Of a DNA stretch of 64,000 bases, positions 5,231 to 51,882 are shown one piece after another. Origin of the DNA: an uncultured Oscillospiraceae bacterium (lineage in GTDB: Bacteria; Bacillota; Clostridia; Saccharofermentanales; UBA5734). Every line of letters starts with the position of its first letter. Position 1 is the stretch's first letter. The stretch lies in contig CAYVHB010000004.1 of assembly GCA_964450865.1 (NCBI GenBank), forward strand, positions 40,363-104,362, written 5' to 3'. Both the position numbers and the translations under genes were made by a program. A model generated the notes under the pieces. The model was not told where the DNA came from. It made no database searches and saw only the letters and a program-made list of their open reading frames with translations.

Positions 5231-5454
5231 ACAATTCGACAGGGCAGCCTTGCTGCCCGTCCGTTCATGACCTTCATCAGTAACAGCCGGGAACATTGAC
5301 GCACGCTTGCACGTCGAACAATCAGAAACTCAAGAAACCAGACTGCAGCCGTTCCGGCCCCAAATTCATGAAGGAAATCCTGTTCATATGCAAAATCGGC
5401 AACAAACCTGCCATCAGGCAGTTGCCAGATAAACCAGGATGTGAGGTGTTACCC

Positions 5455-6831
5455 ATGCGAACGCAATACCCGGACCGGCGATATTCACGGGTGTATCTGG
5501 CTGGTTGTATCCTGCTGGTTTTCACCCTGCTCTTCGCCGGATGCCAGATCAATGCCCCGACAAACCAGTCAGTAACAAGCATGACAACCAACCACTCAAC
5601 CAGCTCAACATCCCCCACCACGCTGGCGGACTCTCACACCGGCGACCTGATGGCCGCCATCCCCGTCGAAGCCTGGCCCCAGTCACCGTCCACCCCCAGC
5701 CAGCCCTTCCAGGCATCGGTTCAGGCCTTCGCCGCCCGCTTGCTGCAAACTACACTGGCCAGCAAGAACAACGGCAATGTCATGATCTCACCGGCGTCCG
5801 TTTTTCTGGCCCTGGCCATGACCCTGAATGGAGCCGATGGCGAGACTAAACAAGCGATGCTGCAGGTGTTAGCCGGCCAGGGGCTGTCGCTCGCAGAAGT
5901 TAACACGATCAGCCGCGACTGGCAAGCCTTGCTCTGTAAAACTGGCAGTAAAACAACCCTGGCCATTGCCAATGCCATCTTCTTCCGCCAATCTTTCCAG
6001 CCGGATCAAAGCTTCCTGCAACGCAACGCAGACTACTTCAAGGCCGGCGCCAGCCGCCTGGACTTTGCAGACCAGAAATCAACTGACGTGATCAATGCCT
6101 GGGTCCAGGAATCAACCCGCGGCACTATCAAAAAAATCGTCGATAAAATCCCGGCGACAACCGTCATGTACCTGATCAATTCAATTTACTTCAAATCAGA
6201 CTGGCAGACGCCCTTTATCAAAGAGGAAAATCGCGAGATACCCTTCCAGACGCCAGCTGGAGCAGTCACGACAAAATTCATGCACCGTATCGACAAAATG
6301 AGCTATTTCACCGGCGAAGGGGTCAGCGGCGTGGCCCTGCCCTACGACAACGGCCAGTTCGTTTACTTCGCCATGCTGCCAGATGGAACAACAACGCCCC
6401 GGCAATGGCTGGCCAAACAGGAACCTGCCAGTCTCTTGGCCAAAATAACCGCCCTGATGGCCCAGAAATCCAATTTCACGGTCGAACTGCAAATGCCCAA
6501 ATTCGAAGTGAGCTTTGAAGACACACTGAACGAAACCCTGTCTACCCTCGGCATGGACATCGCCTTCGATGGCGGCCGGGCCGACTTTTCCTTGCTCAAT
6601 GAGGCACATACCCGTGGCCTCTACATCAGCGAAGTCCGTCACAAAACCTACATCCGCGTCGACGAAAAAGGCACCGAAGCCGCAGCCGTCACCTCAGTCG
6701 CCATCGACGAAAGCGCCATTATCCCAGATGTATCAGTGACCCTCGACCGCCCCTTCATCTACGGCATCATCGACAAAGCCACCGGCATACCCCTCTTCAT
6801 CGGCATCCTCGAAAACCCAACCGCCCAATAA
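5455..6831 (+). CDS. Serpin (serine protease inhibitor) family lipoprotein
   Basis: Signal peptide with lipobox LLFAGCQ, S/T-rich linker, then serpin core: NAIFF, YFKSDWQ, hinge EKGTEAAAVTSV, and C-terminal DRPFIYGIID serpin signature; RBS GAGGTG before ATG 5455. Confidence 0.85.
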   Translation: MRTQYPDRRYSRVYLAGCILLVFTLLFAGCQINAPTNQSVTSMTTNHSTSSTSPTTLADSHTGDLMAAIPVEAWPQSPSTPSQPFQASVQAFAARLLQTTLASKNNGNVMISPASVFLALAMTLNGADGETKQAMLQVLAGQGLSLAEVNTISRDWQALLCKTGSKTTLAIANAIFFRQSFQPDQSFLQRNADYFKAGASRLDFADQKSTDVINAWVQESTRGTIKKIVDKIPATTVMYLINSIYFKSDWQTPFIKEENREIPFQTPAGAVTTKFMHRIDKMSYFTGEGVSGVALPYDNGQFVYFAMLPDGTTTPRQWLAKQEPASLLAKITALMAQKSNFTVELQMPKFEVSFEDTLNETLSTLGMDIAFDGGRADFSLLNEAHTRGLYISEVRHKTYIRVDEKGTEAAAVTSVAIDESAIIPDVSVTLDRPFIYGIIDKATGIPLFIGILENPTAQ

Positions 6832-15578: not shown

Positions 15579-16688
15579 TCAGCTGTGCCACCATTTGGTA
15601 CTGGATGCCTTTAACGAGCCTTTCTCCTGCTTTTCCAGGTATCGGCGCACCATGGCGGCCAGCTTGAAAAGCACGGCGTCGTCAAAGCTGCGCAGATCGA
15701 GTCTGGTAATTTTCTGGACTTTATCCAGGCGATAAACCAGCGTGTTGCGATGGACGAACAGCTGGCGCGATGTTTCACTGCCATTGAGATTGTTCTCGAA
15801 AAACTTCTGGATCGTCAGCAGCGTCTCGCTGTCGAGCGATTCATACGCGCCTTTCGGAAACACTTCGTCGAGGAACATGTGGCACAATGTCGGCGGTAAC
15901 TGATAGATCAGCCGGCCAAGGCCCAGTTTGTCATAGCGCATGATATAGGAGTCGCTCTCGAATATATTGCCAACGGTCAGGGCCAGCGATGCTTCGCGAT
16001 AGGACTTGGCTGTATCCTTGAGTGTATCGGCCGGCATCCCGATGCCGATGTGCACCTTGGCCATTGATTCGGCATTGAGCGTATCAAGGATCAGGGTCGC
16101 GGTTTCGTCGATCAGGGCCGGATTGTCACGGGGATATTCAGTCAGCAGGACGATCGTTTCCTCGTCCATGGCCAGGATGTAGCTGTTGCGGCGGTCCGGG
16201 TACATATTCTGCAGGATTTCCAGGCAATCAATCTCGTCATTCTGTTCAATCCGGACCAGGTAGGCCAGGCGGGTGACAGAATAGGGGATCTTGAATTCGC
16301 GGGCCTTGAGCGGGATATCGCCAGGCAATTCATTTTCGAGAAGCACATTCTTCAGGAAAGCTTCCCGCTCGACATCTGAATTGCGCTCCTTGAGGGCCGC
16401 CTTGATCCAGTGACCCAGCAGCTCGACGTAGGTGCGGGAAACCGGATCGGTGCCGTCAATAAAACAGATGTACGTGGTCCGCTCGGATACTGGCAGTTTC
16501 AGGAATGTACGGCCGGCCGAAATGGCGATGGCCTCGTCAGACAGCAGGACTGCGCGGGTTGAGGAGTCTTCGTTGCCTTCCAGGCGCTCGTCTGTACAGG
16601 CCACGATGATACCATCAGCATCCAGCACGCCAGCCACGCAACTTAAAAATCCAGCAGCTTCCTTGATGCATTTTTTTATTTCTTCCAT
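15579..16688 (-). CDS. CdaR/PucR family transcriptional regulator
   Basis: C-terminal PucR HTH FVHRNTLVYRLDKVQKITRLDLRSFDDAVLFKLA; GGDEF-like middle region typical of CdaR. Confidence 0.8.
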   Translation of the reverse strand: MEEIKKCIKEAAGFLSCVAGVLDADGIIVACTDERLEGNEDSSTRAVLLSDEAIAISAGRTFLKLPVSERTTYICFIDGTDPVSRTYVELLGHWIKAALKERNSDVEREAFLKNVLLENELPGDIPLKAREFKIPYSVTRLAYLVRIEQNDEIDCLEILQNMYPDRRNSYILAMDEETIVLLTEYPRDNPALIDETATLILDTLNAESMAKVHIGIGMPADTLKDTAKSYREASLALTVGNIFESDSYIMRYDKLGLGRLIYQLPPTLCHMFLDEVFPKGAYESLDSETLLTIQKFFENNLNGSETSRQLFVHRNTLVYRLDKVQKITRLDLRSFDDAVLFKLAAMVRRYLEKQEKGSLKASSTKWWHS

Positions 16689-16904
16689 AACTCAAGCCCT
16701 CTCCCTACAGCGGTAACCGGATGCTCTGATTCGGACGATCTATACCATATATTATATTTTTCCAGGTCAGATAGCAAGGTTTCATGACAATCTTAACAAT
16801 TCTTAACAGAAATGAAAGATCTGCCGCCTCATCTTGCGGTTGCCGATCCTGTTACAGGGTGCCCGGCCGGTTGCAGCATCCGGTCCAGTGGCTTCCGGCC
16901 GATC

Positions 16905-16938
16905 AAAAAGGGAGTCCCGTCCGGGACTCCCTTTTTCA
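16905..16938. terminator. Bidirectional rho-independent terminator (perfect 15-bp stem flanked by A5/T5)
   Basis: AAAAAGGGAGTCCCGTCCGGGACTCCCTTTTT between convergent msmK end and plus-strand flank. Confidence 0.75.
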
Positions 16939-17019
16939 GTTAAATTGGAGTTTGGTCCGTGGTCAGCCAGTCAGCATGACCAGGGCGGCTCAGGCTCCAG
17001 CCTGACAGGCCGGGCCTGA

Positions 17020-18132
17020 TCAGCTCAGGATGACGCGCTCGGTTTCCTTGTCAAAGAGGTGGACGCGGTTGCCCCAGACTGCGAAGGTGGTCAGGTCACC
17101 GACGTGCGAGTGGCTCTCGGTCGGGTCGACACGGCAGGTCAGGCTCAGGCCGGCCACGGTGACATACAGGTAGGTCTCGGCGCCGAGCATTTCAACGACG
17201 TCAACATGGGCTTTGAAGGTGGATTTGGGGTTGGCGCTGATCGCGGCTGCTTCATCGGAAATGGCTTCCGGACGGACGCCGAGGACGATGTCCTTGCCGT
17301 CATAGGCCTTGACCGCGGGCACGGAATACTTGGCCGGCAGTTCGAGATTGACATCACCGAACTTGACATTGACAGCATCGCCCTTGACGGTGAGCTTGGC
17401 GTTGATGAAGTTCATCGGCGGCATACCGATGAAGCCGGCGACGAAGGTATTGACCGGGTGCTTGTACAGTTCGGTCGGGGTGTCGACCTGCTGGATAAAG
17501 CCGTCCTTCATGACGACGATGCGGGTACCCATGGTCATGGCTTCGGTCTGGTCATGGGTAACATAGATGATGGTCGTATTCAGGCGCTGATGGAGCTTGC
17601 TGATCTCAACACGCATCTGGACACGCAGCTTGGCGTCGAGGTTGGACAGCGGCTCGTCCATCAGGAAGACTTTCGGGTCACGGACGATAGCACGGCCGAG
17701 GGCAACGCGCTGACGCTGGCCACCGGAAAGGGCCTTCGGCTTTCTGTCGAGCAGATGGGTGATTTCGAGGATCTTGGCAGCCTCGTTCACGCGGCGCTTG
17801 ATCTCATCTTTCGGGAACTTGCGCAGCTTCAGGCCGAAGGCCATGTTGTCGAAGACTGTCATATGCGGGTACAAAGCGTAGTTCTGGAAAACCATCGCGA
17901 TGTCGCGGTCCTTGGGCTGAACATCATTGACGCGCTTGTCACCGATGTAGCAGTCGCCGTCGCTGATTTCCTCGAGACCGGCGATCATGCGCAGGGTTGT
18001 CGACTTGCCGCAGCCCGACGGACCAACCAGGATGATGAATTCCTTGTCAGCGATATCGATATTAAAATCGGTGACGGCGACGACATTGCCTTCGTAACGC
18101 TTGTAAACATTTTTCAGAACGACACTAGCCAT
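17020..18132 (-). CDS. msmK: Sugar/sn-glycerol-3-phosphate ABC transporter ATP-binding protein (MsmK/UgpC/MalK family)
   Basis: Walker A GPSGCGKST, LSGGQRQRVALGRA, FLMDEPLSNLD, C-terminal TOBE regulatory domain; RBS GGAGGGAAT. Confidence 0.9.
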   Translation of the reverse strand: MASVVLKNVYKRYEGNVVAVTDFNIDIADKEFIILVGPSGCGKSTTLRMIAGLEEISDGDCYIGDKRVNDVQPKDRDIAMVFQNYALYPHMTVFDNMAFGLKLRKFPKDEIKRRVNEAAKILEITHLLDRKPKALSGGQRQRVALGRAIVRDPKVFLMDEPLSNLDAKLRVQMRVEISKLHQRLNTTIIYVTHDQTEAMTMGTRIVVMKDGFIQQVDTPTELYKHPVNTFVAGFIGMPPMNFINAKLTVKGDAVNVKFGDVNLELPAKYSVPAVKAYDGKDIVLGVRPEAISDEAAAISANPKSTFKAHVDVVEMLGAETYLYVTVAGLSLTCRVDPTESHSHVGDLTTFAVWGNRVHLFDKETERVILS

Positions 18133-18384: not shown

Positions 18385-18412
18385 TTGAGATGCCAGTTTC
18401 AGAAGGTATAAT
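18385..18412 (+). promoter_or_regulatory. Candidate upstream promoter P1 (TTGAGA-N16-TATAAT) followed by weak hairpin+T-run (18441-18465)
   Basis: Seen in sequence; hairpin CGCCGataaacCGGCG then AATTTTTG could act as attenuator for P1 transcripts. Confidence 0.35.
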
Positions 18413-18474
18413 ATTCATATAAAAGAAAAAAACGTCTTTTCGCCGATAAACCGGCGGAATTTTTGTGCAAAGAC

Positions 18475-18508
18475 TTGAATTTTGTTTTTTTATGCATTAT
18501 GATGCATA
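18475..18508 (+). promoter_or_regulatory. argC promoter P2 (TTGAAT-N17-TATGAT) overlapped by 18-bp ARG-box-like palindrome TATGCATTATGATGCATA (18491-18508)
   Basis: Perfect inverted repeat TATGCAT-N4-ATGCATA of ARG-box length (consensus TNTGAATWWWWATTCANW) overlapping the -10 element about 35 nt upstream of argC ATG. Confidence 0.5.
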
Positions 18509-18543
18509 TTTATCACATTCCGGTGGACAAAGGAGATACAGCC

Positions 18544-19599
18544 ATGGAAAAGAAAGCCAGAATCGGCATTGTTGGGGCAACCGGGTACGTGGGTATGGAG
18601 CTGGTCCGGCTCCTGGCGGGTCATCGCCATTTTGTCATGACCCGCCTCGTTTCGCAAAGCTTTGCCGGTAAACGCTTCAGCGAAGTATACCCGGCCTTCC
18701 ATCATCTGGTTGAAACCACCCTCTCGGACCTGGATCTGGATGCGCTGGCATCGGATTGCGACCTGGTGGTAACGGCCTTGCCGCATGGTGTATCCGCCGC
18801 CGTTGTTCCCGAGCTGCTGAATCGCGGCCTGCGCGTTCTCGACCACAGCGGTGACTTCCGCTATAAGGATGTCAAAATATATGAGCAGGCTTACAAGCTT
18901 GAGCATCCGCAGCCTCACCTCCTGCGGGAGGCCGTCTATGGCTTGCCGGAAATATACCGCGAAGCCATTGCGCACGCCCGCCTGGTTGCCAATCCGGGCT
19001 GCTACCCGACTTGCTCTTTGCTGGGCTTGCTGCCGTTGCTGCGTGCCGGACTGATCCGCAATGATGGTATCATCATCGACGCGGTGTCCGGGATCAGCGG
19101 CGCCGGGCGCAAGGCCGACCTGGCCTATTCATTCTGCGAAGCGGAGTCCAGCTATAAGCCCTATGGAGTCGTCGGCCACCGCCATACCAGTGAGATCGAG
19201 CAGGAAGCCGGTTTCCTGGCCGGTAAAAGCAAGCCGCTGACCCTGACCTTTACACCCCATCTGGCACCACTCAAGCGCGGCATGCTGGCCACCATTTATG
19301 CCGACCTGCTGCCATCAGTCGAGCCTGACAGCTTGCCGGAGCTCTATCACCGGACCTATCAGCATGAGTATTTCATCCGGGTCCTGCCGGCCGGCCAATT
19401 GCCGGAAACCCGTCATGTCGCCTATACCAATTTCGCCGACCTTGCCGTCCACACGGATAAGCGGACCGGCAAAGTCAAGGTGTTCTGCGCCATTGACAAC
19501 CTGGGGAAAGGCGCCGCCGCCCAGGCTGTCCAGGCGCTGAATCTGATGGCGGGCTTTGATGAGAGTGAAGGGCTGATTGCCGCCGGCGGCTCGATCTGA
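18544..19599 (+). CDS. argC: N-acetyl-gamma-glutamyl-phosphate reductase
   Basis: MEKKARIGIVGATGYVGMELVRLL NAD-binding N-terminus, catalytic Cys block ANPGCYPT; RBS AAAGGAG. Confidence 0.9.
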   Translation: MEKKARIGIVGATGYVGMELVRLLAGHRHFVMTRLVSQSFAGKRFSEVYPAFHHLVETTLSDLDLDALASDCDLVVTALPHGVSAAVVPELLNRGLRVLDHSGDFRYKDVKIYEQAYKLEHPQPHLLREAVYGLPEIYREAIAHARLVANPGCYPTCSLLGLLPLLRAGLIRNDGIIIDAVSGISGAGRKADLAYSFCEAESSYKPYGVVGHRHTSEIEQEAGFLAGKSKPLTLTFTPHLAPLKRGMLATIYADLLPSVEPDSLPELYHRTYQHEYFIRVLPAGQLPETRHVAYTNFADLAVHTDKRTGKVKVFCAIDNLGKGAAAQAVQALNLMAGFDESEGLIAAGGSI

Positions 19600-19678: not shown

Positions 19679-20596
19679 GTGAAAGATATTCAGGATTTAA
19701 TCAGCAAGGCTGAGATATTAATCGAGGCATTACCTTACATCCAGCGCCTGGCTGGCAAGACGGTCGTGATCAAGTATGGCGGCAATGCCATGATCAATGA
19801 GGATCTCAAGACTCACGTCATGGAGGACGTGACCTTGCTCAAATTCATCGGGATCAATCCGGTGCTGGTACATGGCGGCGGCCCGGAAATCAGCGGCATG
19901 CTCAAGCGGCTGGATATCCCCTCGGAGTTTCGCCGTGGCCTGCGCGTGACAGATGCCGAAACGATGGGGGTCGCCCAGATGGTACTGGTCGGCAAGACCA
20001 ACAAGGAAATTGTTGCGCGGCTCAATCAGCTGGGTGCCAAAGCTGTCGGTATCTGTGGCATTGACGGCCGCCTGATCGAGTGCGAGAAACTGACCACGGA
20101 CGACGACGGCCAGCCGCTCGATATCGGCTACGTCGGGAAAATAACGGGCATCAATACCAAGATCCTGGCAACGCTGGCCAGCGACGAATACATTCCGGTC
20201 GTCGCGCCTATCGGCATGGGCGCCAACGGCGAAAGCTATAACATCAATGCCGATACCGTGGCCAGCGAAATCGCCTCGGCGCTGAAAGCCGAGAAACTGA
20301 TGACCCTGACCGATGTGGAAGGCGTCAAGGTCAGGAATGAGCAAGGTGAAGAAACAGTGATCCCAGTCCTGAACCAGGTCGAGATCATGGACATGATTGC
20401 CCGCGGCGTGATCAGCGGCGGGATGATCCCCAAAGTCCTGGGCTGCCTCGATACTGTCCTGCGCGGCGTAGGCCGGGCCCACATTATCGATGGTCGCATC
20501 CCGCATTGCCTCTTGCTGGAGATTTTCACCAACAAGGGCATCGGTACCATGATCACCCAGGAACGCCGGCCCTATTATCAGGGCGAGAAAATCTGA
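19679..20596 (+). CDS. argB: Acetylglutamate kinase
   Basis: [19 protein letters not shown] amino-acid-kinase motifs; GTG start after GGGGAGG RBS. Confidence 0.9.
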
Positions 20597-20615: not shown

Positions 20616-21869
20616 ATGACAGACCCTGCAAAGCAATATCCAGGTGAAATATCTGACACCACGCTCGATGAGGTGATTGCTCTCGATGATCAATATTACC
20701 TGCTGGCCTTTGGCCGGCGGACCCCGCTGTGCATCGACCATGGCGAGGGAGTCTGGCTTTACGGAACTGACAGCAGGCGCTATCTTGACCTGATCGGCGG
20801 TATCGCGGTCAATGTCCTGGGCCATGCCCATCCGCGCCTGACCCAGGCGATCTGTCAGCAAGCCGCCAAGGTTATTCACTGCTCCAACTACTTTTATAAT
20901 GAGCCGCAGGCTTTGCTGGCGCAAAAACTGGGTGACCTTTTTGGCGATGGCCGGGTTTTTATCGGCAACAGCGGTGCCGAGGCCAACGAGGCAGCCATCA
21001 AGCTGGCGCGGGGCTACTTTTATAAAAAAGGCCAGCCACGGGCTAAAATCGTCAGTGCCCTGCAGTCCTTCCACGGCCGGACCCTCGCTACGGCAACGGC
21101 TACCGGCCAGAGTAAATACAGCGCACCCTTTGCGCCCCTGCCGGAAGGCTTTGTCCATGTCCCGTTCAACGATCAGGCCGCATTGCGCGCCGCCGTTGAT
21201 GACCAGACTTGCGCGATCATGCTCGAACTGATCCAGGGAGAAAGCGGTGTCCGGCCAGCCGATCCCGAATACGTCGCAACCGCGGTCGAACTCTGCCGGC
21301 TGACCGGTGCCCGCCTGATCATTGACGAAATCCAGACGGGCATGGGCCGGACCGGTCATTTCCTGGCCAGCCAGCTGTATGGCATCCAGCCCGATATTGT
21401 CACCCTGGCCAAGGGACTGGCCGGCGGCGTGCCAATCGGCGCCGTGATTGCCAGCCAGGAGACCGCCACCGGCTTTGCGCCTGGCGACCATGGCAGTACC
21501 TTTGGCGGCAATCCGCTGGCATGTTCTGCTGCCCTGGCGGTACTGGAAACCTATGAAAACGACCACCTGATCGAGCGGGCCAGGCAGATGGGCCAGATCT
21601 TCCGCAGTGAACTCGAGCAAGTAGCCCTGCGCACCGGCCAGATCCGCGAGATCCGCGGCGCCGGCCTGATGCTGGGGGTCGAACTCGCCCAGCCGATTGC
21701 CGCCCAGGTTAAAGCAGCCTGCCTGGGCCAGGGGTATCTGATTGGCGCTGTCGGCACGACTGTGCTGCGCCTCCTGCCACCCCTGATTATCGAGGCGGAA
21801 CCGATCCGCGCGTTCGCCAGCAGTCTTGAGACAATCCTGCTGGCATCACAGGCATCCAACCAGCCATAA
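20616..21869 (+). CDS. argD: Acetylornithine aminotransferase (class III PLP aminotransferase)
   Basis: GNSGAEANEAAIKLAR, DEIQTGMGRTG, LAKGLAGG (PLP-lysine) motifs; RBS GGGAGGA. Confidence 0.9.
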   Translation: MTDPAKQYPGEISDTTLDEVIALDDQYYLLAFGRRTPLCIDHGEGVWLYGTDSRRYLDLIGGIAVNVLGHAHPRLTQAICQQAAKVIHCSNYFYNEPQALLAQKLGDLFGDGRVFIGNSGAEANEAAIKLARGYFYKKGQPRAKIVSALQSFHGRTLATATATGQSKYSAPFAPLPEGFVHVPFNDQAALRAAVDDQTCAIMLELIQGESGVRPADPEYVATAVELCRLTGARLIIDEIQTGMGRTGHFLASQLYGIQPDIVTLAKGLAGGVPIGAVIASQETATGFAPGDHGSTFGGNPLACSAALAVLETYENDHLIERARQMGQIFRSELEQVALRTGQIREIRGAGLMLGVELAQPIAAQVKAACLGQGYLIGAVGTTVLRLLPPLIIEAEPIRAFASSLETILLASQASNQP

Positions 21870-21956: not shown

Positions 21957-22895
21957 ATGAGCATCAGACACCTGATCAGTCTGCACGATCTTCCAGCAGC
22001 CGCGATCATCGACCTGCTTGACCTGGCTGATCGCCTGAAAGCCCAGCAAAAAGCCGGCCAGCCGCATCCCTGGCTCGCCGGCAAAACCCTGGGCATGATC
22101 TTTTCCAAATCATCAACCCGGACCCGCGTATCTTTCGAGGCCGGCATGTACCAGCTGGGTGGCCATGCGCTTTTCCTGAGCAGTAACGATATCCAGCTTG
22201 GCCGCGGCGAGTCGATCAGTGACACGGCCAGGGTGATGTCCCGTTATCTGGATGGCATCATGATCCGGACCTTCGCCCATCAGGATGTCATTGACCTGGC
22301 CCGTTATGGCACCATTCCGATCATCAACGGCCTGACCGACCTGATGCATCCCTGCCAGGTGCTGGCTGACCTGCAGACAATCCGCGAACACAAGGGTCGT
22401 CTGCAGGGCCTGAAACTGGCTTATCTGGGAGACGGCAACAACATGGCCCATTCCTTGCTGCATGGCGCGGCTAAATGCGGCATGGATATCCGGGTGGCAA
22501 CGCCGGCCGGATTTGCATGTGATCCGGGTTGTGTCGAGGAAGCGCGGCAGGATGCTGCGGTTTCCGGTTCGAAAATTATCCTGACCGACGATCCGCAGGC
22601 CGCCATCCGGGACGCTGATGTGGTTTATACGGACACCTGGGTCAGCATGGGCCAGGAAGCGGAGAAGGCCCAGCGCATCGCCCAGTTTGCCGGTTATCAG
22701 GTAAACGAGGACATGATGCGGCTGGCACATCCCGAGGCCATTTTCATGCATTGCCTGCCGGCCTATCGGGGATATGAAGTATCCGCAGCGGTCATTGACG
22801 GCCCCGCTTCCGTGATCTTCGATGAAGCAGAGAACCGGCTGCACGCCCAGAAGGCGGTGCTGGTGCGTCTGCTCAATCCGGACGCCCAGGCATGA
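21957..22895 (+). CDS. argF: Ornithine carbamoyltransferase
   Basis: STRTRVSFE carbamoyl-phosphate motif, HPCQ, HCLP motifs; RBS GGGAGGG; in arg operon. Confidence 0.9.
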   Translation: MSIRHLISLHDLPAAAIIDLLDLADRLKAQQKAGQPHPWLAGKTLGMIFSKSSTRTRVSFEAGMYQLGGHALFLSSNDIQLGRGESISDTARVMSRYLDGIMIRTFAHQDVIDLARYGTIPIINGLTDLMHPCQVLADLQTIREHKGRLQGLKLAYLGDGNNMAHSLLHGAAKCGMDIRVATPAGFACDPGCVEEARQDAAVSGSKIILTDDPQAAIRDADVVYTDTWVSMGQEAEKAQRIAQFAGYQVNEDMMRLAHPEAIFMHCLPAYRGYEVSAAVIDGPASVIFDEAENRLHAQKAVLVRLLNPDAQA

Positions 22896-23404
22896 CGCAT
22901 GCGGAAATCCTGATCCGTCCGGCCAGCCAGGCCGAGGCAGCCGATATCCTGCAGCTGGTACAGTGGGCGATGCAGGTCTATGCCAGCCAGTCAGGCATTA
23001 CCTCACCGCTGGACTCGCAACAGGAAACGCTGACAGACATGCAGCGGCATATCCGCGAAGATCATGTCCTGGTTGCCGAACACAAGGGCCATCTGATTGG
23101 TACCGTCCGCCTGGTGCGCCTGTCGGATAAGACGGCTTATTTCAGCCGCTTTGCTGTCCACCCGCATCTGCAGCGGACCGGTGTTGGCCGGATGCTCTAC
23201 GATGCGGCTGAAATCTGGCTGCGCCAGCATCAGTTTGCTGCAGTTGAATTGCATACGGCGCTCAGCAACGCGGGCCTTGTCGCCTTTTACCAGGGCCGCG
23301 GGTTTATTCTGGTTGAAAGTGAAAACAGCCGCGGTTATACCCGCGGCCGTTTTCGTAAAGAACTGATCGATACCCGTCATCTCAGCGATGCAGTAACGGG
23401 CTGA
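22892..23404 (+). CDS. GNAT family N-acetyltransferase, translationally coupled to argF; candidate short-form N-acetylglutamate synthase
   Basis: ATGA overlap with argF stop; GNAT motif A RTGVGRMLYDAAE; N-terminal IRPASQAEAADILQLV and VLVAEHKGHLIGTVRL resemble mycobacterial short ArgA (Rv2747-type). Confidence 0.7.
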   Translation: MTHAEILIRPASQAEAADILQLVQWAMQVYASQSGITSPLDSQQETLTDMQRHIREDHVLVAEHKGHLIGTVRLVRLSDKTAYFSRFAVHPHLQRTGVGRMLYDAAEIWLRQHQFAAVELHTALSNAGLVAFYQGRGFILVESENSRGYTRGRFRKELIDTRHLSDAVTG

Positions 23405-24035
23405 GGCGCTTGTACATCAGGGCGACAATCAGGGAGACCACAAGGCCTTTAAACAGGTTGAACGGCACAAAAACAAAATAGATCAGGGTCGGCAGATCGG
23501 TCACCAGTTTGTTGCCGACAGCCTGGGTCATGCCGATAATGGCTTCGAGCGGGAAATGCATGACATCAATGTAGAACGGCAGCATGAAAAAGTAATTGAT
23601 CAGGCTGGCAGCGATTGTCATGGCCAGCGTCCCGGATGCCATCGCCAGGAAAGCACCGGAACGGCTTTTCATCAGGCGATAAACCATGCCGGCTGTCCCG
23701 ACAAAAAATGAGCCGATCATGAAATTGGCCAGTTCGCCGACTCCGGCGGTCTGTGTACCGGGCAGGTGAACGAGATTCTTGATCAGTTCGATCAGGATGG
23801 CTGTCAGCGGACCCATGCTGAAGCTGGCCAGCAGAACAGCCACTTCACTGAAGTCAAATTTCAGGAAGGATGGCATCAGGGGCAGGGCCATTTCCAGATA
23901 CATCAGGGCGACAGCAACCGCGGCGAGAATACCGGTCTTGGCAACCCAGTGCGTTCTTTGCCGGTTGACCAGGGCGGTCGGATTTTGACCGGCCGATGCG
24001 GGTGAAACAGAACGGGAGCTTTTTGATTCAATCAT
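23382..24035 (-). CDS. ribU: ECF transporter S component, RibU/YpaA-like (riboflavin)
   Basis: LKFDFSEVAVLLASFSMGPLTAILIELIKNLV and GVGELANFMIGSFF align with B. subtilis RibU blocks; RBS GGAAAGAGGA before ATG 24035; FMN riboswitch upstream. Confidence 0.75.
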   Translation of the reverse strand: MIESKSSRSVSPASAGQNPTALVNRQRTHWVAKTGILAAVAVALMYLEMALPLMPSFLKFDFSEVAVLLASFSMGPLTAILIELIKNLVHLPGTQTAGVGELANFMIGSFFVGTAGMVYRLMKSRSGAFLAMASGTLAMTIAASLINYFFMLPFYIDVMHFPLEAIIGMTQAVGNKLVTDLPTLIYFVFVPFNLFKGLVVSLIVALMYKRLSPLLHR

Positions 24036-24299
24036 GGGTGCAATCCTCTTTCCATCCATTCAAAGATTTGCTCAGGTACTGATGATAACAGGTCCGGGAA
24101 TCCGGTCAGTCCCCGGCAGATTTGTTATGAGGCTGGCGCTTCATGTGCTGACAAAACCGGACTCGGGATCCGGGAATATGGTTTCAGAGGCCTGCAACCT
24201 TATTAATCAGGATGCCAATACCTGCAGGCGGCTACCCAGCTACCCAGCTGAGAAGAAGGCTTCACTGGCCAGAACCTGGCCAGGCCGTACGATACAGAA

Positions 24300-24500
24300 C
24301 TGGACAATAAAAAACCCCCAGGCAAGCGCATGGGGGCATCCGGCAACCTGAAAAACAGGCTATGCCAGTTTCCTATCATCCAGACTATACTGTCGGCCAA
24401 GGAATCACACCTTGTCAGCCTCTTGCGAGGGTCGCGGGCTCGACAGCACATGGCCGCCATCACCGCCGGTAGGGACTTGCACCCTGCCCCGGAAAACTGC
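24300..24500 (-). promoter_or_regulatory. FMN riboswitch (RFN element): aptamer about 24366-24499 plus intrinsic terminator 24303-24336
   Basis: Minus strand reads TTTTCCGGGGCAGGGTGCAAGTCCCTACCGGCGGTGATGG...AGCCCGCGACCC...GGTGTGATTCCTTGGCCGACAGTATAGTCTGGATGATAGGAAA, matching all conserved RFN blocks, then GCCCCCATGCGCTTGCCTGGGGGTTTTTTATTG terminator. Confidence 0.88.
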
Positions 24501-24514
24501 ATTGTCGTCTCGTA

Positions 24515-41063: not shown

Positions 41064-44000
41064 ATGGCATCCGAACGCGTAAAACCCGTTAAACCGGCTC
41101 AGCCGGGCCCCGCTTCGCCGACATCCGGCAGTCTATCTGCCGCCACCACAAACACGAACATCAGCCAGCCGGGCCCGGCCACTACTACCGGAAACAAGCC
41201 GGGTAATCAGCCTGCCCCAGCCAGGCCCGGTCGACGTCCTGGCTGGTTGCGAGTTGATAAAAGACTGCTCCGGGCCTTTGGTGCCGGAGCCCTGGCAGCT
41301 ATTCTTGTTTTCAGTATCCTGCTGACAGCGTTGAATCCCGGCTGGCTGGCCGGCACTTTTACCCGCCAGATTGGCAGCCGTACGCTGGCCCAGGAAGTCA
41401 ATCTGCAGCCGGTCACTGCTGCGCCGGCTACCCTGAAAGCAGCGGCCGAGATTGAGCAGACCTTTAACCTGGCCCTGAGCCAGGCTGAAATCAAGTCTAC
41501 CAAAACCGATTATTATCAGCTTGGCGGCTTTTTCCGGGACCTGAAAATCAGTGCCATCAAGCCGGCGGGTGACCAGCTGGCGATAACCATCAAGGGCAAA
41601 ATTGCCGATCCACATGCCTATGGGCCGGATGTCGGCAATCCCGACGGTGAAATCTACGTCATGCCGGAAGCCCTGCAGGACTCGACAGCTGCCTTTGCGG
41701 CCAGGATTACCATTGAATACCCGCAACTCAATCCGCAGACGACCGTTCTGGAGGAAAAGCCGGCTTATAGCGACCAGCTGGTCTTCACCCTGCAGGGTGA
41801 CACGTTCCGCCAGGTACCAACAGCTGCCGATATCACGCTGGGTGGCGGGTTTACCGGCATGACCGTCGCAGCCGTTCGCCAGCAGGAACAGGAGCTGGCC
41901 CTAACCATCACGGGCGGCCTCGATCCCAATGGCGGCAATGGTATTGTCACGCTGGCCGGCACAGCCCTGGGCAGCGCATTTTCTGTTGACCAGGTGATCA
42001 GGATTGCCGGCACAGCCTGCCTCTTCTCTTTTACGCCGCTGACCGTTGAAGAACCCCTGCAGGAAACGCTGCTGGTCGGTATTGATCACGATTCCTTTGC
42101 AACTGACCTGACCGCAGACATGTTCACGCTCGGCGGCGGCCTGGCTGATGCGCGGATTACCGAGGTCCGGCCGACTGACCAGCCCAATGCTGTCTGGCTG
42201 ACCATTCAGGGAGCAGCCTTGCGCCAGCCCGGTTCAGCCAGCCTGCGGGCCGAGGCCCGGGCTGTGACGAGTGGCCGTGCTGTCACCGGCACAATCGACA
42301 TTCGTAATCCGGATATTTACGCTTTCCATGTCATGGACAGCCAGGCCAACCAGGCCACCGATAATCAGGTCTATGATCTTTACACCCTGGGCAATGACTT
42401 TTTGCCATACCTGCAGGCAGGCGACTTCGTCCTCAAGGATGCTCTGTCTTTTTGTAAAATCACAGCGGTAAAATGGCTCAACGGCTATCATGTGCTGCTG
42501 ACAGTGCGTGGTTTGCCCGGCAATGGCGAGGGACGCATCGCAGTCCGTTCGGCCGCGCTCGGGGGGGTGACCGGCGCGGATGCGGTCGTCCAGAAGATCC
42601 GCCAGGCTGATCTCCTGATCGCGGGAACCAGCGACGCAGCCTTGCTGCAGGCGCCACAACCAGCAGACCAGGCAAGCAGCCCGGCCTTGTTGCAGACATC
42701 GTTGCCATCCGGCCTGGCCGGCCTGGACATGGTTCGCTGGCAACAGATCCTGTCCCCGGGCGGGCTGGCCGGCGGGAACTGGGGTAACCAGATGCCGGTA
42801 TCAGGCATCCGGACGTTAACCGCCCCATCCGCGGGACTGCGCGCGGCAGCCAGTCCGCTGCGCCTCAATACCACACCCGCGTCTGAAGCCCAGCTGATGT
42901 GGGGACTGGACCAGCTTATCGACTGGGGTATCGACAAGGTCAAGGGACTGGTTATTGAGGGGATCAAATCAGGCCTGAAAGCCGGTGCGACCAAGGGCCT
43001 GATGTACGGCCTGCGGGAAACCGGACTGCAAGGGCCGGCTGTTGAGGATCTGCTCAAGGAAATCCAGACGTCGCTCGACCAGATCCAGAAACAGCTCGGT
43101 ACCATGCAGAATGTGCTCAGCGAAGCCATCAGCGACACGGAGCTGAATGGCCAGCTGGCTTCGTTACTGGAAGCCCAGACCAAAATCAAACGGGCCTATG
43201 AGATGTATGTATTCCTGCAAAGCCAGATCAAAGATTATGAAGCGGCCAACCCTGGCAAAAAAGCGCTGGATGATCCGGATATCAGGCACGCCAATGAATT
43301 GTTCATGAATGAGATTGCCACGAAGGACATCGAAACGGCGACCCTGCAGATCGCCCAGGCCATGGCCGGCAATTCGCAGGCAACGTCACTGATTACGATT
43401 TATTACAATAACCGCAAGCACAAACTGCCCTTTGAGCACAATGCCGCCGAGAATCTGCGCCAGTTTTACCAGGAAATGCTGATGCTGCAAACTCAGGGGC
43501 TCCTGCTCTATGCCGAATACTGCAATTACAACATGGCCAGCAGCCAGCTGTTTTACAATAACAAGCTGGAAACCATGACCAATACAATCTCGGAAAGCCT
43601 GGACGCCCAGAAAAAGTTCCTGCCACCGGACAGCGTGTTCAAGGTCAAGAACAATCCGCTCAGCGGTGACATCCGGGTCAAGAGCAACTACAGCGGCAAG
43701 TCGTACATCCTGGTCAAGGGGGCCTCTACCATGGCCCAGCTGACATCGGACAAGCAGGCAAAAAGCGGCTTTGTGATCACCTACTATATTCCCGTCAACC
43801 AGAACAAGGACGGCACTAATTCCGACAAGGCCCTGGTCAAGATCCTGCGCGACCGCGGGAATACAGCTGTCAATACAGCCAGTACCGAAAGCGGTGATGC
43901 CCCGACAACCGGGCCATACCGGGAACTGGCCAAAAGTGATATCGCCGACCTGCTTTACTACCATAAGGAAAAGAAACTGGAGACAAATACCATCAATTTC

Positions 44001-44207
44001 TTTGCAAAATATACCGGTGCCGACGGTCTGGTTGATTATCTCTATCTGAAACGCGAGGGCAGCTCAATCTTTGCCCTGCTGGGTCCGCTGGATTATAACT
44101 ACGACATCTACGACATGCGGACTGACAGCTACCGGACTTTCAAAGCCTCGGACCTTTTCAGCAAATACAAGGATTATTATGAGAAAATAATCCTGGCTGT
44201 TCGCTGA
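41064..44207 (+). CDS. Large (1047 aa) membrane-anchored modular surface protein of unknown function
   Basis: RBS GGGAGGGATGA; Pro/Gly/Thr-rich cytoplasmic N-tail, single TM (residues about 69-91), four tandem about 85-aa beta-rich repeats, Pro/Ala linker, about 420-aa C-terminal domain with helical then beta-rich halves and lower GC. Confidence 0.8.
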   Translation: MASERVKPVKPAQPGPASPTSGSLSAATTNTNISQPGPATTTGNKPGNQPAPARPGRRPGWLRVDKRLLRAFGAGALAAILVFSILLTALNPGWLAGTFTRQIGSRTLAQEVNLQPVTAAPATLKAAAEIEQTFNLALSQAEIKSTKTDYYQLGGFFRDLKISAIKPAGDQLAITIKGKIADPHAYGPDVGNPDGEIYVMPEALQDSTAAFAARITIEYPQLNPQTTVLEEKPAYSDQLVFTLQGDTFRQVPTAADITLGGGFTGMTVAAVRQQEQELALTITGGLDPNGGNGIVTLAGTALGSAFSVDQVIRIAGTACLFSFTPLTVEEPLQETLLVGIDHDSFATDLTADMFTLGGGLADARITEVRPTDQPNAVWLTIQGAALRQPGSASLRAEARAVTSGRAVTGTIDIRNPDIYAFHVMDSQANQATDNQVYDLYTLGNDFLPYLQAGDFVLKDALSFCKITAVKWLNGYHVLLTVRGLPGNGEGRIAVRSAALGGVTGADAVVQKIRQADLLIAGTSDAALLQAPQPADQASSPALLQTSLPSGLAGLDMVRWQQILSPGGLAGGNWGNQMPVSGIRTLTAPSAGLRAAASPLRLNTTPASEAQLMWGLDQLIDWGIDKVKGLVIEGIKSGLKAGATKGLMYGLRETGLQGPAVEDLLKEIQTSLDQIQKQLGTMQNVLSEAISDTELNGQLASLLEAQTKIKRAYEMYVFLQSQIKDYEAANPGKKALDDPDIRHANELFMNEIATKDIETATLQIAQAMAGNSQATSLITIYYNNRKHKLPFEHNAAENLRQFYQEMLMLQTQGLLLYAEYCNYNMASSQLFYNNKLETMTNTISESLDAQKKFLPPDSVFKVKNNPLSGDIRVKSNYSGKSYILVKGASTMAQLTSDKQAKSGFVITYYIPVNQNKDGTNSDKALVKILRDRGNTAVNTASTESGDAPTTGPYRELAKSDIADLLYYHKEKKLETNTINFFAKYTGADGLVDYLYLKREGSSIFALLGPLDYNYDIYDMRTDSYRTFKASDLFSKYKDYYEKIILAVR

Positions 44208-50804: not shown

Positions 50805-51704
50805 ATGAAACGCAGAAACTGGCTGACGCTGGTCGTCCTGGTGCTGAGCGCGGCACTCCTGGCCACCGGCTGTGCCTCGACCACGACCACGACTGCCACC
50901 ACAACCGCGGGCAGCACGCCTGCTGAAAGCAGCACCACCACGGCCGCCAGCACCACCGCCGCGACCACCACGGCCGCCGCCGATGATTCCCTGCAGAAAG
51001 TGCTGGACAAGAAAGAGTTCGTCCTGGGTCTCGATGATGCCTTCCCGCCCATGGGCTATCGCGACGACAACAACCAGATTGTCGGCTTTGATATCGACCT
51101 GGCCAAGGAAGTCGCCAAACGCATGGGCGTCACCTTGAAACTGCAGCCAATCAAATGGGACCAGAAGTTCAATGAACTCGCAGCCGGCACCATCGATTGT
51201 ATCTGGAATGGCTATTCAATCGACGAAGAACGCAAAGAGAAGACCAATATTACCGATCCTTATATGAAGAACCGCCAGGTCGTCATTGTACTGGCCGATT
51301 CTTCCTTCAAGACCCTGGCTGATCTCGCCGGCAAAACGGTCGCTGTCCAGGCCGACTCCTCTGCTGAAGCCGCGGTTGACAAGCATCCGGAATTCAAGGA
51401 TACCCTGAAAGAAGTCGTCAAGCTCAATGACTATGTCACGGCTATCATGGACCTCAAGGCCAGCGGTTCTGACGCCCTGGTCATCGACGAAATCGTCGCC
51501 GGCTATTATATTGCCAAGGAAAACAAAGCCTACCGGATCCTTGATGAATCACTCGCTGAAGAAGAATACGGCGTCGGATTCCGCAAGGAGGACCAGTCCC
51601 TGCGCGACGAAGTCGAAAAGCAGCTCAAGGCCATGGCTGCTGACGGCACACTGGCCAGGATCTCAACGGAATGGTTCAGCAAGGATATCACGACAATCAA
51701 ATGA
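50805..51704 (+). CDS. Polar amino acid (glutamine-type) ABC transporter substrate-binding lipoprotein
   Basis: Lipobox LATGCAS, Thr-rich linker, SBP_bac_3 blocks; RBS GGAGGT. Confidence 0.85.
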   Translation: MKRRNWLTLVVLVLSAALLATGCASTTTTTATTTAGSTPAESSTTTAASTTAATTTAAADDSLQKVLDKKEFVLGLDDAFPPMGYRDDNNQIVGFDIDLAKEVAKRMGVTLKLQPIKWDQKFNELAAGTIDCIWNGYSIDEERKEKTNITDPYMKNRQVVIVLADSSFKTLADLAGKTVAVQADSSAEAAVDKHPEFKDTLKEVVKLNDYVTAIMDLKASGSDALVIDEIVAGYYIAKENKAYRILDESLAEEEYGVGFRKEDQSLRDEVEKQLKAMAADGTLARISTEWFSKDITTIK

Positions 51705-51849
51705 AACCTTTCCAGACTCCAGGCAAGCATAGCGCAACCTGCCAGTCCATGAAATATTGCCAGGCGCCAGGTGAAGCATAGCATGATCAGATAACAAATA
51801 TTGCGTTACCAGGTATCAGGTACAGCGTTACCAGGAATCAGGGCAACCG

Positions 51850-51882
51850 GGATGGGCGGACAGGCAGACTGTTCGCCCATCC
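51850..51882. repeat. Perfect 9-bp-stem GC-rich hairpin GGATGGGCG-N15-CGCCCATCC in SBP-permease spacer, preceded by direct repeat GCGTTACCAGG(T/A)ATCAGG x2
   Basis: Seen directly; no T-run. Confidence 0.6.

What the first reader, a model, noticed from the sequence alone, without database searches (positions are those of the whole stretch)
22892..23404. GNAT translationally coupled to argF is a candidate short-form N-acetylglutamate synthase in an argC-B-D-F operon lacking argJ/argA
The operon encodes argC, argB, argD and argF back-to-back but no ornithine acetyltransferase (argJ) or classical two-domain argA. The 170-aa GNAT overlaps the argF stop (ATGA). Its N-terminal and central blocks (IRPASQAEAADILQLV; VLVAEHKGHLIGTVRL; FAVHPHLQRTGVGRML) parallel the single-domain short NAGS described in Mycobacterium tuberculosis (Rv2747), which has VRRARTSDVPAIKQLV, FWVAEH and the acetyl-CoA-binding Q/R-x-x-G-x-G/A motif. 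The ARG-box over the argC promoter implies the GNAT is co-repressed by arginine. I propose, by inference, that it supplies the first step of the pathway.
Basis: inference. Interest (0 to 1): 0.55.

Follow-up and report, generated by a model that had tools for sequence, protein, structure and literature searches.

The report
Arginine-operon acetyltransferase, probable N-acetylglutamate synthase

Summary
A 170-aa GNAT ORF (22892-23404, +) overlaps the argF stop codon (ATGA) at the end of argC-argB-argD-argF. No argJ or argA lies in the operon or anywhere in the 64-kb window. An ARG-box-like palindrome overlaps the argC promoter.

For it: in ArgB-seeded loci from other species, 41 of 41 argF genes with enough downstream sequence are followed by a member of this GNAT family. 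This holds when carAB is inserted. Divergent members sit in other arginine contexts: argD-GNAT and argD-argG-GNAT-argH. The family is under purifying selection. N-acetylglutamate synthase (NAGS) catalyses the only acetyl-CoA-dependent step of the pathway, so it is the best reading (about 0.6).

Against it: the resemblance to Rv2747 is generic GNAT similarity (BLASTP E = 0.14; NAGS models far below cutoff). An operon without argJ does not mean a genome without argJ. Clostridium thermocellum has the same cluster (Clo1313_2555-2562) and an ArgJ elsewhere (Clo1313_2150). The window's ArgB is the arginine-sensitive type associated with ArgJ-cycling organisms. The likely role is therefore a priming (anaplerotic) NAGS.

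All public names found call the family a generic GNAT.

The parts
18475..18503 (+). Promoter-like site in front of argC (TTGAAT, 17 nt, TATGAT)
   Evidence: Consensus scan, 9 of 12 matches. The position is conserved in relatives (alignment A2). A consensus match only; function is not shown.
18491..18508 (.). ARG-box-like 18-bp palindrome TATGCATTATGATGCATA overlapping the -10 hexamer; putative ArgR/AhrC operator
   Evidence: Three mismatches to TNTGAATWWWWATTCANW. Conserved upstream of argC in L002, L005, L006, L007 and L008. The idealised form TATGCATTATAATGCATA occurs with <=4 mismatches upstream of argC in 29 of 69 species loci. The mean best match is 4.7 mismatches, against 7.3 in random windows. 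Binding by ArgR is inferred.
18541..19599 (+). argC, N-acetyl-gamma-glutamyl-phosphate reductase
   Evidence: TIGR01850, 406.6 bits against cutoff 233.6; Pfam Semialdhyde_dh domains.
19679..20596 (+). argB, N-acetylglutamate kinase of the arginine-sensitive type with an N-terminal helix
   Evidence: TIGR00761, 252.5 bits against 151.3. Best PDB matches are the NAGKs 2JJ4 (307 bits), 2BUF (304) and 2BTY (285). The alignment to 2BUF starts at query residue 6; those to 2JJ4 and 2BTY start at residue 10. E. coli 1GS5 scores only 85.6 bits and aligns from residue 29. That the three best matches are the arginine-sensitive hexameric type is from established knowledge, not the tool output.
20616..21869 (+). 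argD, acetylornithine aminotransferase
   Evidence: NF002874, 461.2 bits against 457; TIGR00707, 469 against 410.
21957..22895 (+). argF, canonical ornithine carbamoyltransferase (not the acetyl- or succinyl-ornithine type)
   Evidence: TIGR00658, 436.9 bits against 280.85. The N-acetylornithine carbamoyltransferase model NF003384 scores 199.5, below its cutoff of 288.
22892..23404 (+). Single-domain GNAT acetyltransferase, 170 aa, start overlapping the argF stop (ATGA); proposed N-acetylglutamate synthase
   Evidence: Pfam Acetyltransf_1, 6.5e-19. AlphaFold model pLDDT 91.2 with a canonical GNAT fold. Family members follow argF in 41 of 41 loci. dN/dS is 0.16-0.41.
23171..23188 (+). Acetyl-CoA (pyrophosphate) binding motif Q94-R-T-G97-V-G99, matching Q/R-x-x-G-x-G/A
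   Evidence: G97 and G99 are invariant across the broad family alignment A3. The motif definition is from PMC4490483.
23330..23344 (+). Family signature R147-G-Y149-T-R151 between the last two beta strands; candidate acceptor-carboxylate binding site
   Evidence: Y149 and R151 are invariant and G148 nearly invariant in A3, as is R86 on beta4 (nt 23147-23149). R151 is replaced in the near-outgroup P0330, which has no arginine context. The role in glutamate binding is inferred.

Best explanation
The gene encodes a single-domain GNAT of a distinct, so far unannotated family that belongs functionally to the arginine biosynthesis operon of many Clostridia. The most likely reaction is acetyl-CoA + L-glutamate -> N-acetyl-L-glutamate (NAGS, EC 2.3.1.1).

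Proposed mechanism:
- Acetyl-CoA sits on the Q94-x-x-G97-x-G99 loop.
- Y133 acts as the general acid.
- The invariant basic residues (R86, R151, with Y149) hold the two carboxylates of glutamate.

The gene is translated as the last cistron of argC-B-D-F, coupled to argF through the ATGA overlap. It is expressed from a promoter overlapped by an ARG-box-like operator, so it would be made when arginine is low.

The ArgB is the arginine-sensitive type. The best-studied organism with the same cluster also has an ArgJ elsewhere. The enzyme therefore probably primes or replenishes the acetyl cycle (anaplerotic NAGS alongside an ornithine acetyltransferase) rather than carrying all first-step flux.

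Shown: the gene, the coupling, the fold class, the family-wide linkage to arg genes, and purifying selection. Inferred: the substrate, the role of the named residues, ArgR control, and the presence of argJ elsewhere in this genome.
For: Genome context:
- Among ArgB-seeded loci from distinct species, 41 of 41 argF genes with >=450 nt downstream are followed on the same strand by a family GNAT. Scores are 88-274 bits; gaps are often -1, -4 or -8.
- These include Ruminiclostridium cellobioparum and R. sufflavum, Acetivibrio straminisolvens, and Mageeibacillus, Saccharofermentans and Christensenellales MAGs.
- The link survives insertion of carAB between argD and argF.
- It survives a separate argD-argF-GNAT cluster (L077).
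- It survives argD-GNAT arrangements: L061 (Fonticella), L072, and L097.
- It survives argD-argG-GNAT-argH-LysE in the divergent member P0311 (L100).
- GNAT-seeded look-ups and a GNAT-seeded metagenome scan give the same picture.
- The near-outgroup P0330 lacks the family's R151 and LHTA motif and follows a GH32 gene instead.

The gene is real and constrained:
- dN/dS is 0.16-0.41.
- Residues Y30, R86, G97, G99, Y133, Y149 and R151 are invariant.
- The C. thermocellum gene in the same position, Clo1313_2562, was detected by proteomics. Its orthology rests on position, not a sequence comparison.

Pathway logic (established knowledge): NAGS is the only acetyl-CoA-dependent step of arginine synthesis. 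GNATs have been recruited to it several times: S-NAGS, ArgO, C-NAGS, and Bacteroidetes ArgA2 (PMC4490483; PMC9026213; PMC7311316).

argF is a canonical OTC and argD an acetylornithine aminotransferase. This argues for acetylated rather than succinylated intermediates.

A conserved ARG-box-like operator lies at the argC promoter.
Against: - No sequence or fold signal points to glutamate.
   - No NCBIfam family reaches its cutoff. The best hit is WecD at 42 bits against 219; the NAGS models score 16 and 22 bits.
   - PDB profile and Foldseek searches return generic GNATs (2ae6, 2fia, Ard1, NAA50, PaiA, YncA, ArsN), with no NAGS among the 60 profile and 50 Foldseek matches listed.
- C. thermocellum has an ArgJ elsewhere, to which the curated model iCBI655 assigns the NAGS reaction. 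If that ArgJ is bifunctional, as in Bacillus and Geobacillus, a separate NAGS would be redundant.
- The survey is biased. Most loci were seeded by similarity to the window's ArgB, so they form one ArgB clade.
- No biochemical or genetic data exist for any family member in the literature I could search.
Confidence: 0.6

Rival explanations
1. It is a member of the Rv2747-type short NAGS family (S-NAGS), homologous to the acetyltransferase domain of classical ArgA, and is the sole first-step enzyme in a genome that lacks argJ and argA.
For: It is a single GNAT domain of similar length. It has the Q/R-x-x-G-x-G/A motif. It lies in an operon without argJ. hhalign of the family profile against Rv2747 gives probability 95.8%, E = 7e-9.
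Against: - The hhalign score sits alongside equally strong or stronger profile matches to unrelated GNATs such as NAA50, Ard1 and PaiA. I read it as superfamily-level similarity.
- BLASTP gives E = 0.14.
- No NAGS chain appears in the PDB phmmer search at E <= 1, while Rv2747 itself finds Neisseria NAGS at 1.6e-10.
- NCBIfam NAGS models are far below cutoff.
- ArgJ exists elsewhere in C. thermocellum, which has the same cluster.
- ArgB is the arginine-sensitive type, which is associated with the ArgJ cycle.
Confidence: 0.04
2. It is an arginine-pathway acyltransferase with a different acceptor or donor. Options: (a) acetylation of ornithine to N-acetylornithine, to load a monofunctional ArgJ cycle; (b) acetylation of glutamate-5-semialdehyde/P5C, as yeast Mpr1 does, to feed proline intermediates into the pathway at ArgD; (c) N-succinylglutamate synthesis, as proposed for Bacteroidetes ArgA2.
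For: The gene sits next to the ornithine-using ArgF or the semialdehyde-using ArgD, not next to argB or argC. Nothing in the sequence identifies glutamate as the acceptor. GNAT acceptor specificity is not predictable from fold.
Against: - argB and argC are retained in the same operons, so a bypass of the early steps is not needed.
- argF is a canonical OTC, and argD matches acetylornithine aminotransferase models.
- C. thermocellum has an annotated ArgJ. Together with the canonical OTC and ArgD, this points to acetylated intermediates and argues against succinyl chemistry.
- Ornithine acetylation cannot start the pathway from nothing.
Confidence: 0.14
3. It is a regulatory protein acetyltransferase that modifies an arginine-pathway enzyme (for example ArgF or ArgB) or another protein, and is co-expressed with the operon.
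For: The closest solved structures include protein N-terminal and lysine acetyltransferases: Ard1 4PV6, HP0935 8IYM, RimI, and NAA50. Tight coupling to argF could reflect a protein partner.
Against: These matches have only 14-21% identity and reflect the common GNAT fold. NCBIfam RimI scores 30 bits against a cutoff of 86. The partner gene varies (argF, argD, argG/argH), which fits a pathway role better than one protein target. Invariant arginines fit a small acidic substrate.
Confidence: 0.1
4. It is a housekeeping or detoxifying GNAT, for example acting on glutamate analogues such as methionine sulfoximine, phosphinothricin or arsinothricin. It would merely be lodged at the 3' end of the operon.
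For: There are weak similarities to ArsN1, PAT and YncA/MddA: NCBIfam 20-25 bits, and Foldseek hits to 5WPH, 5JTF and 3DR8. 3'-terminal operon positions often collect passengers.
Against: 41 of 41 argF-GNAT linkages across many species and at least four different arginine-gene arrangements are not what a passenger gene shows. All those models are far below cutoff. ArgR-type repression is an odd control for a resistance gene.
Confidence: 0.08

Closest known systems
Short NAGS (S-NAGS), Mycobacterium tuberculosis Rv2747 (PDB 5YGE/5YO2)
   Same: Single GNAT domain of about 170 aa and the acetyl-CoA motif. It coexists with an ArgJ in its genome (established knowledge). The proposed reaction is the same.
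   Different: Rv2747 is a clear homologue of the classical ArgA acetyltransferase domain (E = 1.6e-10 to Neisseria NAGS). The window protein is not: BLASTP E = 0.14 and no NAGS hit in PDB. From established knowledge, Rv2747 is encoded away from the arg operon; this family is embedded in it.
ArgO (O-NAGS) of Campylobacter jejuni, in the argCOBD cluster
   Same: A small GNAT (146 aa) with no significant similarity to the ArgA NAT domain, encoded inside an arg cluster and proposed or shown to supply N-acetylglutamate (PMC4490483). This is the closest analogy in logic.
   Different: It sits between argC and argB rather than after argF, and in a different phylum. I could not obtain the ArgO sequence, so homology with this family is untested.
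ArgA2 of Bacteroidetes and Calditrichaeota (BT3761, Cabys_1732)
   Same: A GNAT annotated only as a generic acetyltransferase, located in arginine operons. It was identified by co-localisation and co-occurrence and supported by fitness data (PMC9026213; PMC7311316; PMC5317091).
   Different: In Bacteroides it is proposed to make N-succinylglutamate and co-occurs with a succinylornithine carbamoyltransferase. Here argF is a canonical OTC. Its distribution was reported as limited to Bacteroidetes and C. abyssi. Sequence relationship not tested.
C-NAGS, Corynebacterium glutamicum Cg3035
   Same: A non-classical NAGS that works beside a monofunctional ArgJ, which is the anaplerotic role proposed here (PMC3827942).
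   Different: It is described as unrelated in sequence to other NAGS (PMC4490483). From established knowledge it is a larger protein that is not operon-linked.

Membership tests
GNAT superfamily (Pfam PF00583 Acetyltransf_1) | Significant match to the GNAT profile above the curated cutoff | tested here: met
   PF00583, 68.8 bits against cutoff 20.7; PF13508 and PF13673 also above cutoff.
GNAT superfamily (Pfam PF00583 Acetyltransf_1) | Q/R-x-x-G-x-G/A acetyl-CoA motif after beta4, and the mixed alpha/beta GNAT fold | tested here: met
   Q94-R-T-G97-V-G99, with G97 and G99 invariant. AlphaFold model pLDDT 91.2. Foldseek TM 0.68-0.79 to many GNAT structures.
S-NAGS / classical ArgA acetyltransferase domain (Rv2747, Neisseria NAGS) | Specific sequence homology to the NAT domain of ArgA-type NAGS | tested here: not met
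   BLASTP against Rv2747, E = 0.14. No NAGS chain among 37 PDB hits at E <= 1 or among the 60 profile hits listed. NF003641 scores 16 bits against 344, and NF005840 22 against 154. Control: Rv2747 finds 2R8V at 1.6e-10.
S-NAGS / classical ArgA acetyltransferase domain (Rv2747, Neisseria NAGS) | Acetyl-CoA:L-glutamate N-acetyltransferase activity | not testable with these tools
   Needs an enzyme assay or argA complementation.
Operon-encoded non-classical NAGS (functional class: ArgO, ArgA2) | Gene located within arginine biosynthesis clusters and co-occurring with them across genomes | tested here: met
   41 of 41 argF-GNAT; argD-GNAT (L061, L072, L097); argG-GNAT-argH (L100); GNAT-seeded scans.
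Operon-encoded non-classical NAGS (functional class: ArgO, ArgA2) | No other enzyme able to make N-acetylglutamate in the genome (ArgA, or bifunctional ArgJ) | tested here: inconclusive
   None in the 64-kb window or in 90 related loci. The rest of the genome could not be searched. C. thermocellum, with the same cluster, has ArgJ Clo1313_2150. Whether that ArgJ is mono- or bifunctional is unknown.
Operon-encoded non-classical NAGS (functional class: ArgO, ArgA2) | Sequence homology to ArgO (Cj0225) or ArgA2 (BT3761/Cabys_1732) | not tested
RimI (ribosomal protein S18 alanine acetyltransferase), the name some sources give family members | Score above the equivalog cutoff of TIGR01575 / NF007025 | tested here: not met
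   30.2 bits against 86.4, and 18.3 against 173. The 'RimI-like' names in JGI are generic.
ArgJ (ornithine acetyltransferase, PF01960) | ArgJ fold with the autoproteolytic ATML motif | tested here: not met
   The GNAT has no ArgJ match. There is no ArgJ motif or tblastn hit in the window.

The most novel reading that the evidence does not exclude
The family is not a glutamate acetylase. It would instead load the arginine acetyl cycle by another route. One option is acetylation of ornithine, giving N-acetylornithine for a monofunctional ArgJ. The other is acetylation of glutamate-5-semialdehyde/P5C, an Mpr1-like shunt from proline intermediates into ArgD. Neither step is known in bacterial arginine synthesis. 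Its constant position next to argF or argD, rather than argB or argC, would then be meaningful.
Probability: 0.1. Interest if true: 0.7.

Novelty: new variant of a known kind. Interest (0 to 1): 0.45.

Why it matters
If the family is a NAGS, it would be a further independent recruitment of a GNAT to the first step of arginine synthesis. It would join classical ArgA, vertebrate-like NAGS, S-NAGS, ArgO, C-NAGS and ArgA2.

It would cover a wide swathe of Clostridia, including the cellulolytic organisms used in bioprocessing (Acetivibrio, Ruminiclostridium).

In the names I retrieved, the family is labelled only 'GNAT family N-acetyltransferase', 'RimI-like' or 'YhbS'. The curated C. thermocellum model assigns the NAGS reaction to ArgJ alone.

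A correct assignment would change pathway reconstructions and auxotrophy predictions. It would also imply that ArgJ in these organisms may be monofunctional. The claim can be tested directly with one complementation experiment.

Tried and rejected
1. Testing for argJ elsewhere in this organism's genome.
   - A protein-database search with a verified Geobacillus-type ArgJ listed only Bacillaceae among the 120 rows shown. My plan was to recognise an ArgJ on the same contig as the GNAT by its contig length, and that failed.
   - The window's exact GNAT occurs only on Logan metagenome contigs of at most 200 kb.
   - The question stays open for this genome. It is answered only by proxy, through C. 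thermocellum and the ArgB type.
2. Fold-based substrate inference. The model is confident, but Foldseek returns the whole GNAT superfamily with similar scores, so I rejected it as uninformative.
3. Profile search of PDB with the broad alignment. The best hits are uncharacterised GNATs.
It was rerun with A1, which mostly recovers the close lineage.
5. Rfam finds no riboswitch or T-box in the argC leader. The only hit is an FMN riboswitch belonging to the neighbouring ribU-like gene.
6. The terminator-like hairpin at 23328-23347 inside the GNAT gene is explained by the codons of the conserved S-R-G-Y-x-R-G motif, so I did not treat it as a terminator.
7. Literature searches for a described Clostridial arg-linked GNAT, or for Clo1313_2562, found nothing.
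8. 390-425-aa ORFs near argC in related loci were checked as possible ArgJ. By inspection of their sequences they look like membrane, transporter and peptidase proteins, and none matches the ArgJ query.
Full report
**1. What is there**

The window carries a compact operon on the + strand:
- argC, 18541-19599
- argB, 19679-20596
- argD, 20616-21869
- argF, 21957-22895
- a 170-aa ORF, 22892-23404

The ATG of the last ORF overlaps the argF stop codon (gcATGAcg). The four arg genes each pass NCBIfam cutoffs. argF is a canonical ornithine carbamoyltransferase: TIGR00658 scores 436.9 against a cutoff of 280.85. The acetylornithine carbamoyltransferase model NF003384 stays below its cutoff (199.5 against 288).

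The last ORF is a plain GNAT (PF00583, 6.5e-19). No NCBIfam family reaches its cutoff. The best is WecD at 42 bits against 219, and the NAGS models score 16 against 344 and 22 against 154.

Downstream, and convergent, is an ECF S-component (23382-24059, -) preceded by an FMN riboswitch (24364-24501). This is a riboflavin transporter unit unrelated to the operon.

No ArgJ, ArgA, ArgE, ArgR, ArgG or ArgH is found anywhere in the 64-kb window.

**2. Regulation**

A promoter-like site (TTGAAT-17-TATGAT, 18475-18503) is overlapped by the palindrome TATGCATTATGATGCATA (18491-18508). The palindrome has three mismatches to the E. coli ARG-box consensus. Two of them form the symmetric TGAAT-to-TGCAT change.

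The palindrome is conserved in front of argC in close relatives. A version with <=4 mismatches is found upstream of argC in 29 of 69 species loci. The mean best match is 4.7 mismatches, against 7.3 in random windows of the same loci. ArgR-type repression is therefore a reasonable inference, but it is not shown.

**3. The GNAT family and its genomic company**

A word-indexed search found 30 close relatives (51-97% identity, 157-210 aa). In every case looked up, they sit in the same syntenic block: FtsEX, a PucR-like regulator, a MalK-like ATPase, argCBDF-GNAT, ribU, alr. On its own that is weak evidence, because the whole neighbourhood is inherited together.

The ArgB-seeded scan of one genome per species was decisive (80 loci, 58-84% ArgB identity). 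An HMM built from the close relatives found family members scoring 88-274 bits in these loci.
- In 41 of 41 cases where argF has at least 450 nt downstream, the next gene on the same strand is a family GNAT. The gap is often -1, -4 or -8 nt.
- The set includes isolates: Ruminiclostridium cellobioparum, R. sufflavum and Acetivibrio straminisolvens.
- It also includes MAGs labelled Mageeibacillus, Saccharofermentans, Oscillospiraceae and Christensenellales.

The link survives rearrangement:
- carA-carB inserted between argD and argF (many loci).
- A separate argD-argF-GNAT cluster (L077).
- argC-B-D-GNAT (L072).
- carAB-argD-GNAT-argC-argB in Fonticella tunisiensis (L061).

In the exhaustive representative library, the family has 42 clusters at E <= 1e-30 and 450 at E <= 1e-10. 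I looked up three of the more distant members (93-102 bits):
- P0311 lies in argD-argG-GNAT-argH-LysE (L100).
- P0299 follows an ArgD-type aminotransferase (L097).
- P0330 follows a GH32 glycosidase gene (L096). It lacks the family's LHTA motif and R151.

A GNAT-seeded metagenome scan again gave argF-GNAT wherever upstream sequence existed.

The gene is under purifying selection (dN/dS 0.16-0.41). It evolves about 1.3-3 times faster at non-synonymous sites than argF.

**4. What the protein looks like**

The AlphaFold model is confident (pLDDT 91.2, pTM 0.84) and shows a canonical GNAT fold.

Across the broad alignment, the invariant residues are A11, Y30, R86, V89, G97, G99, L120, Y133, G137, Y149 and R151. 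Nearly invariant are E45, G70, Y83, F87, H121, T122, A123, F132, F138 and G148.
- Q94-x-x-G97-x-G99 is the CoA pyrophosphate motif.
- Y133 sits where GNATs usually have the general acid (inference).
- R86 on beta4 and the Y149-x-R151 hairpin are family-specific. Two basic residues are what known NAGS use to hold the two carboxylates of glutamate: Arg316/Arg425 in Neisseria, and Lys401/Arg474/Arg476 in human (PMC4490483). Their role here is inferred only.

Foldseek and PDB profile searches return the GNAT superfamily at large: uncharacterised GNATs, Ard1, NAA50, HP0935, PaiA, YncA, ArsN and RimI. No NAGS appears among the matches listed. Fold gives no substrate information.

**5. The Rv2747 comparison**

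The Rv2747 sequence I used matches PDB 5YO2/5YGE at every aligned position over all 174 residues. It finds the Neisseria NAGS acetyltransferase domain at 1.6e-10.

The window protein aligns to Rv2747 with E = 0.14 and 24% identity. It finds no NAGS chain at E <= 1. Profile-profile comparison gives 95.8% probability. I read that as superfamily-level similarity, because the same profile also matches many unrelated GNATs in PDB.

The protein is not a member of the S-NAGS/ArgA-NAT family.

**6. The argJ argument**

None of the 80 ArgB-seeded loci has an argJ between argC and argB or within 10 kb. The whole clade therefore has argJ-less operons.

That does not mean argJ-less genomes. Supplementary tables of the C. 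thermocellum model paper (PMC7471609) list this cluster:
- Clo1313_2556, N-acetylglutamate kinase, preceded by an N-acetyl-gamma-glutamyl-phosphate reductase row whose locus tag is cut off in the excerpt (presumably 2555)
- Clo1313_2558, acetylornithine aminotransferase
- a carbamoyl-phosphate synthase large subunit (tag cut off; a row for Clo1313_2559 begins just before)
- Clo1313_2561, ornithine carbamoyltransferase
- Clo1313_2562, 'GCN5-related N-acetyltransferase'

This matches the arrangement seen in A. straminisolvens (L032). The tables also list Clo1313_2150, 'glutamate N-acetyltransferase (EC 2.3.1.35)', detected with 16 peptides. The model assigns the N-acetylglutamate synthase reaction to it.

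The window's ArgB aligns best, from residue 6 or 10 onward, with the NAGKs of Synechococcus, P. aeruginosa and T. maritima (285-307 bits). It aligns poorly with E. coli NAGK (86 bits, from residue 29). From established knowledge of NAGK structures, the first three are the arginine-sensitive hexameric type with an N-terminal helix. The E. coli enzyme is the arginine-insensitive type. The arginine-sensitive type is characteristic of organisms that recycle the acetyl group with ArgJ.

I could not search the rest of this organism's genome (see tried and rejected). By proxy, an ArgJ elsewhere is likely.

**7. Best explanation**

The family is a dedicated arginine-pathway acetyltransferase. NAGS is the only acetyl-CoA-dependent reaction of the pathway. 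GNATs have been recruited to it repeatedly. The canonical OTC and acetylornithine aminotransferase argue for acetylated intermediates.

NAGS is therefore the most likely function (about 0.6). Most probably it primes an ArgJ cycle, as S-NAGS and C-NAGS do in actinobacteria.

Alternatives that the evidence does not exclude:
- another acceptor, such as ornithine or glutamate semialdehyde
- succinyl-CoA as donor
- a protein-acetylating regulator
- a passenger detoxifying enzyme (least likely)

**8. Novelty**

Arg-operon GNATs acting as NAGS are a known kind (ArgO, ArgA2). This family is distinct from the Rv2747/ArgA domain. Its relationship to ArgO and ArgA2 was not tested.

It is widespread in Clostridia. 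In every public name retrieved it is called only 'GNAT family N-acetyltransferase', 'RimI-like enzyme' or 'YhbS'. I found no paper describing it.

I rate it a new variant of a known kind, of moderate interest, and directly testable.

Noticed in passing
window 24364-24501 (-) and 23382-24059 (-): An FMN riboswitch (Rfam RF00050, 102.9 bits) sits upstream of an ECF-transporter S component, probably a RibU-type riboflavin transporter. Its 3' end overlaps the GNAT 3' end by 23 nt. Relatives have a small Zn-ribbon membrane protein gene between the GNAT and ribU; it is missing here.
   Followed up: partly
window 18385-18470 (+): There is a second, stronger promoter-like site (TTGAGA-16-TATAAT, 11 of 12). 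It is followed about 25 nt later by a terminator-like hairpin (18438-18459 plus TTTTTGTG). Both lie just upstream of the ARG-box promoter of argC, with no gene in between. It could be a short leader or attenuator, a small RNA, or chance. The TATAATATTCATATAAA stretch also resembles half an ARG box.
   Followed up: no
window 5296-6831 (+): A 511-aa protein has a full-length serpin domain (PF00079, 2.5e-94) and an N-terminal extension of about 140 aa. I believe bacterial serpins are uncommon.
   Followed up: no
window 41064-44207 (+): A 1047-aa ORF with high GC3 (0.68, typical of real genes here) has no Pfam match at E <= 0.001.
   Followed up: no
window 53573-53636: Two ARG-box-like sites (2 and 3 mismatches to the E. 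coli consensus) lie 46 nt apart. They sit in the gap between a polar amino-acid ABC transporter operon (50805-53351, +) and a convergent PHP-domain gene (53850-54605, -). No obvious target gene was identified.
   Followed up: no
L028 11046-11747 and the equivalent 211-237-aa ORFs in L026, L027, L029, L032, L036, L045, L046: In the Ruminiclostridium/Acetivibrio branch, an extra ORF of about 230 aa lies between argB and argD (probably Clo1313_2557 in C. thermocellum). It is absent from the window, and its function was not examined.
   Followed up: no
L001 1342-2316 and 3653-5074: The 670-kb metagenome contig behind L001 carries an inverted duplication of the argF-GNAT-Zn-ribbon-ribU segment next to its end. 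This is probably an assembly artefact.
   Followed up: no
window 15579-18132 (-) and relatives: A PucR/CdaR-like regulator (GGDEF_2 + HTH_30) and a lone MalK-like ABC ATPase lie divergently upstream of argC in most of the loci where upstream sequence is available, across the whole clade. This synteny is as stable as the arg operon itself and is unexplained.
   Followed up: no
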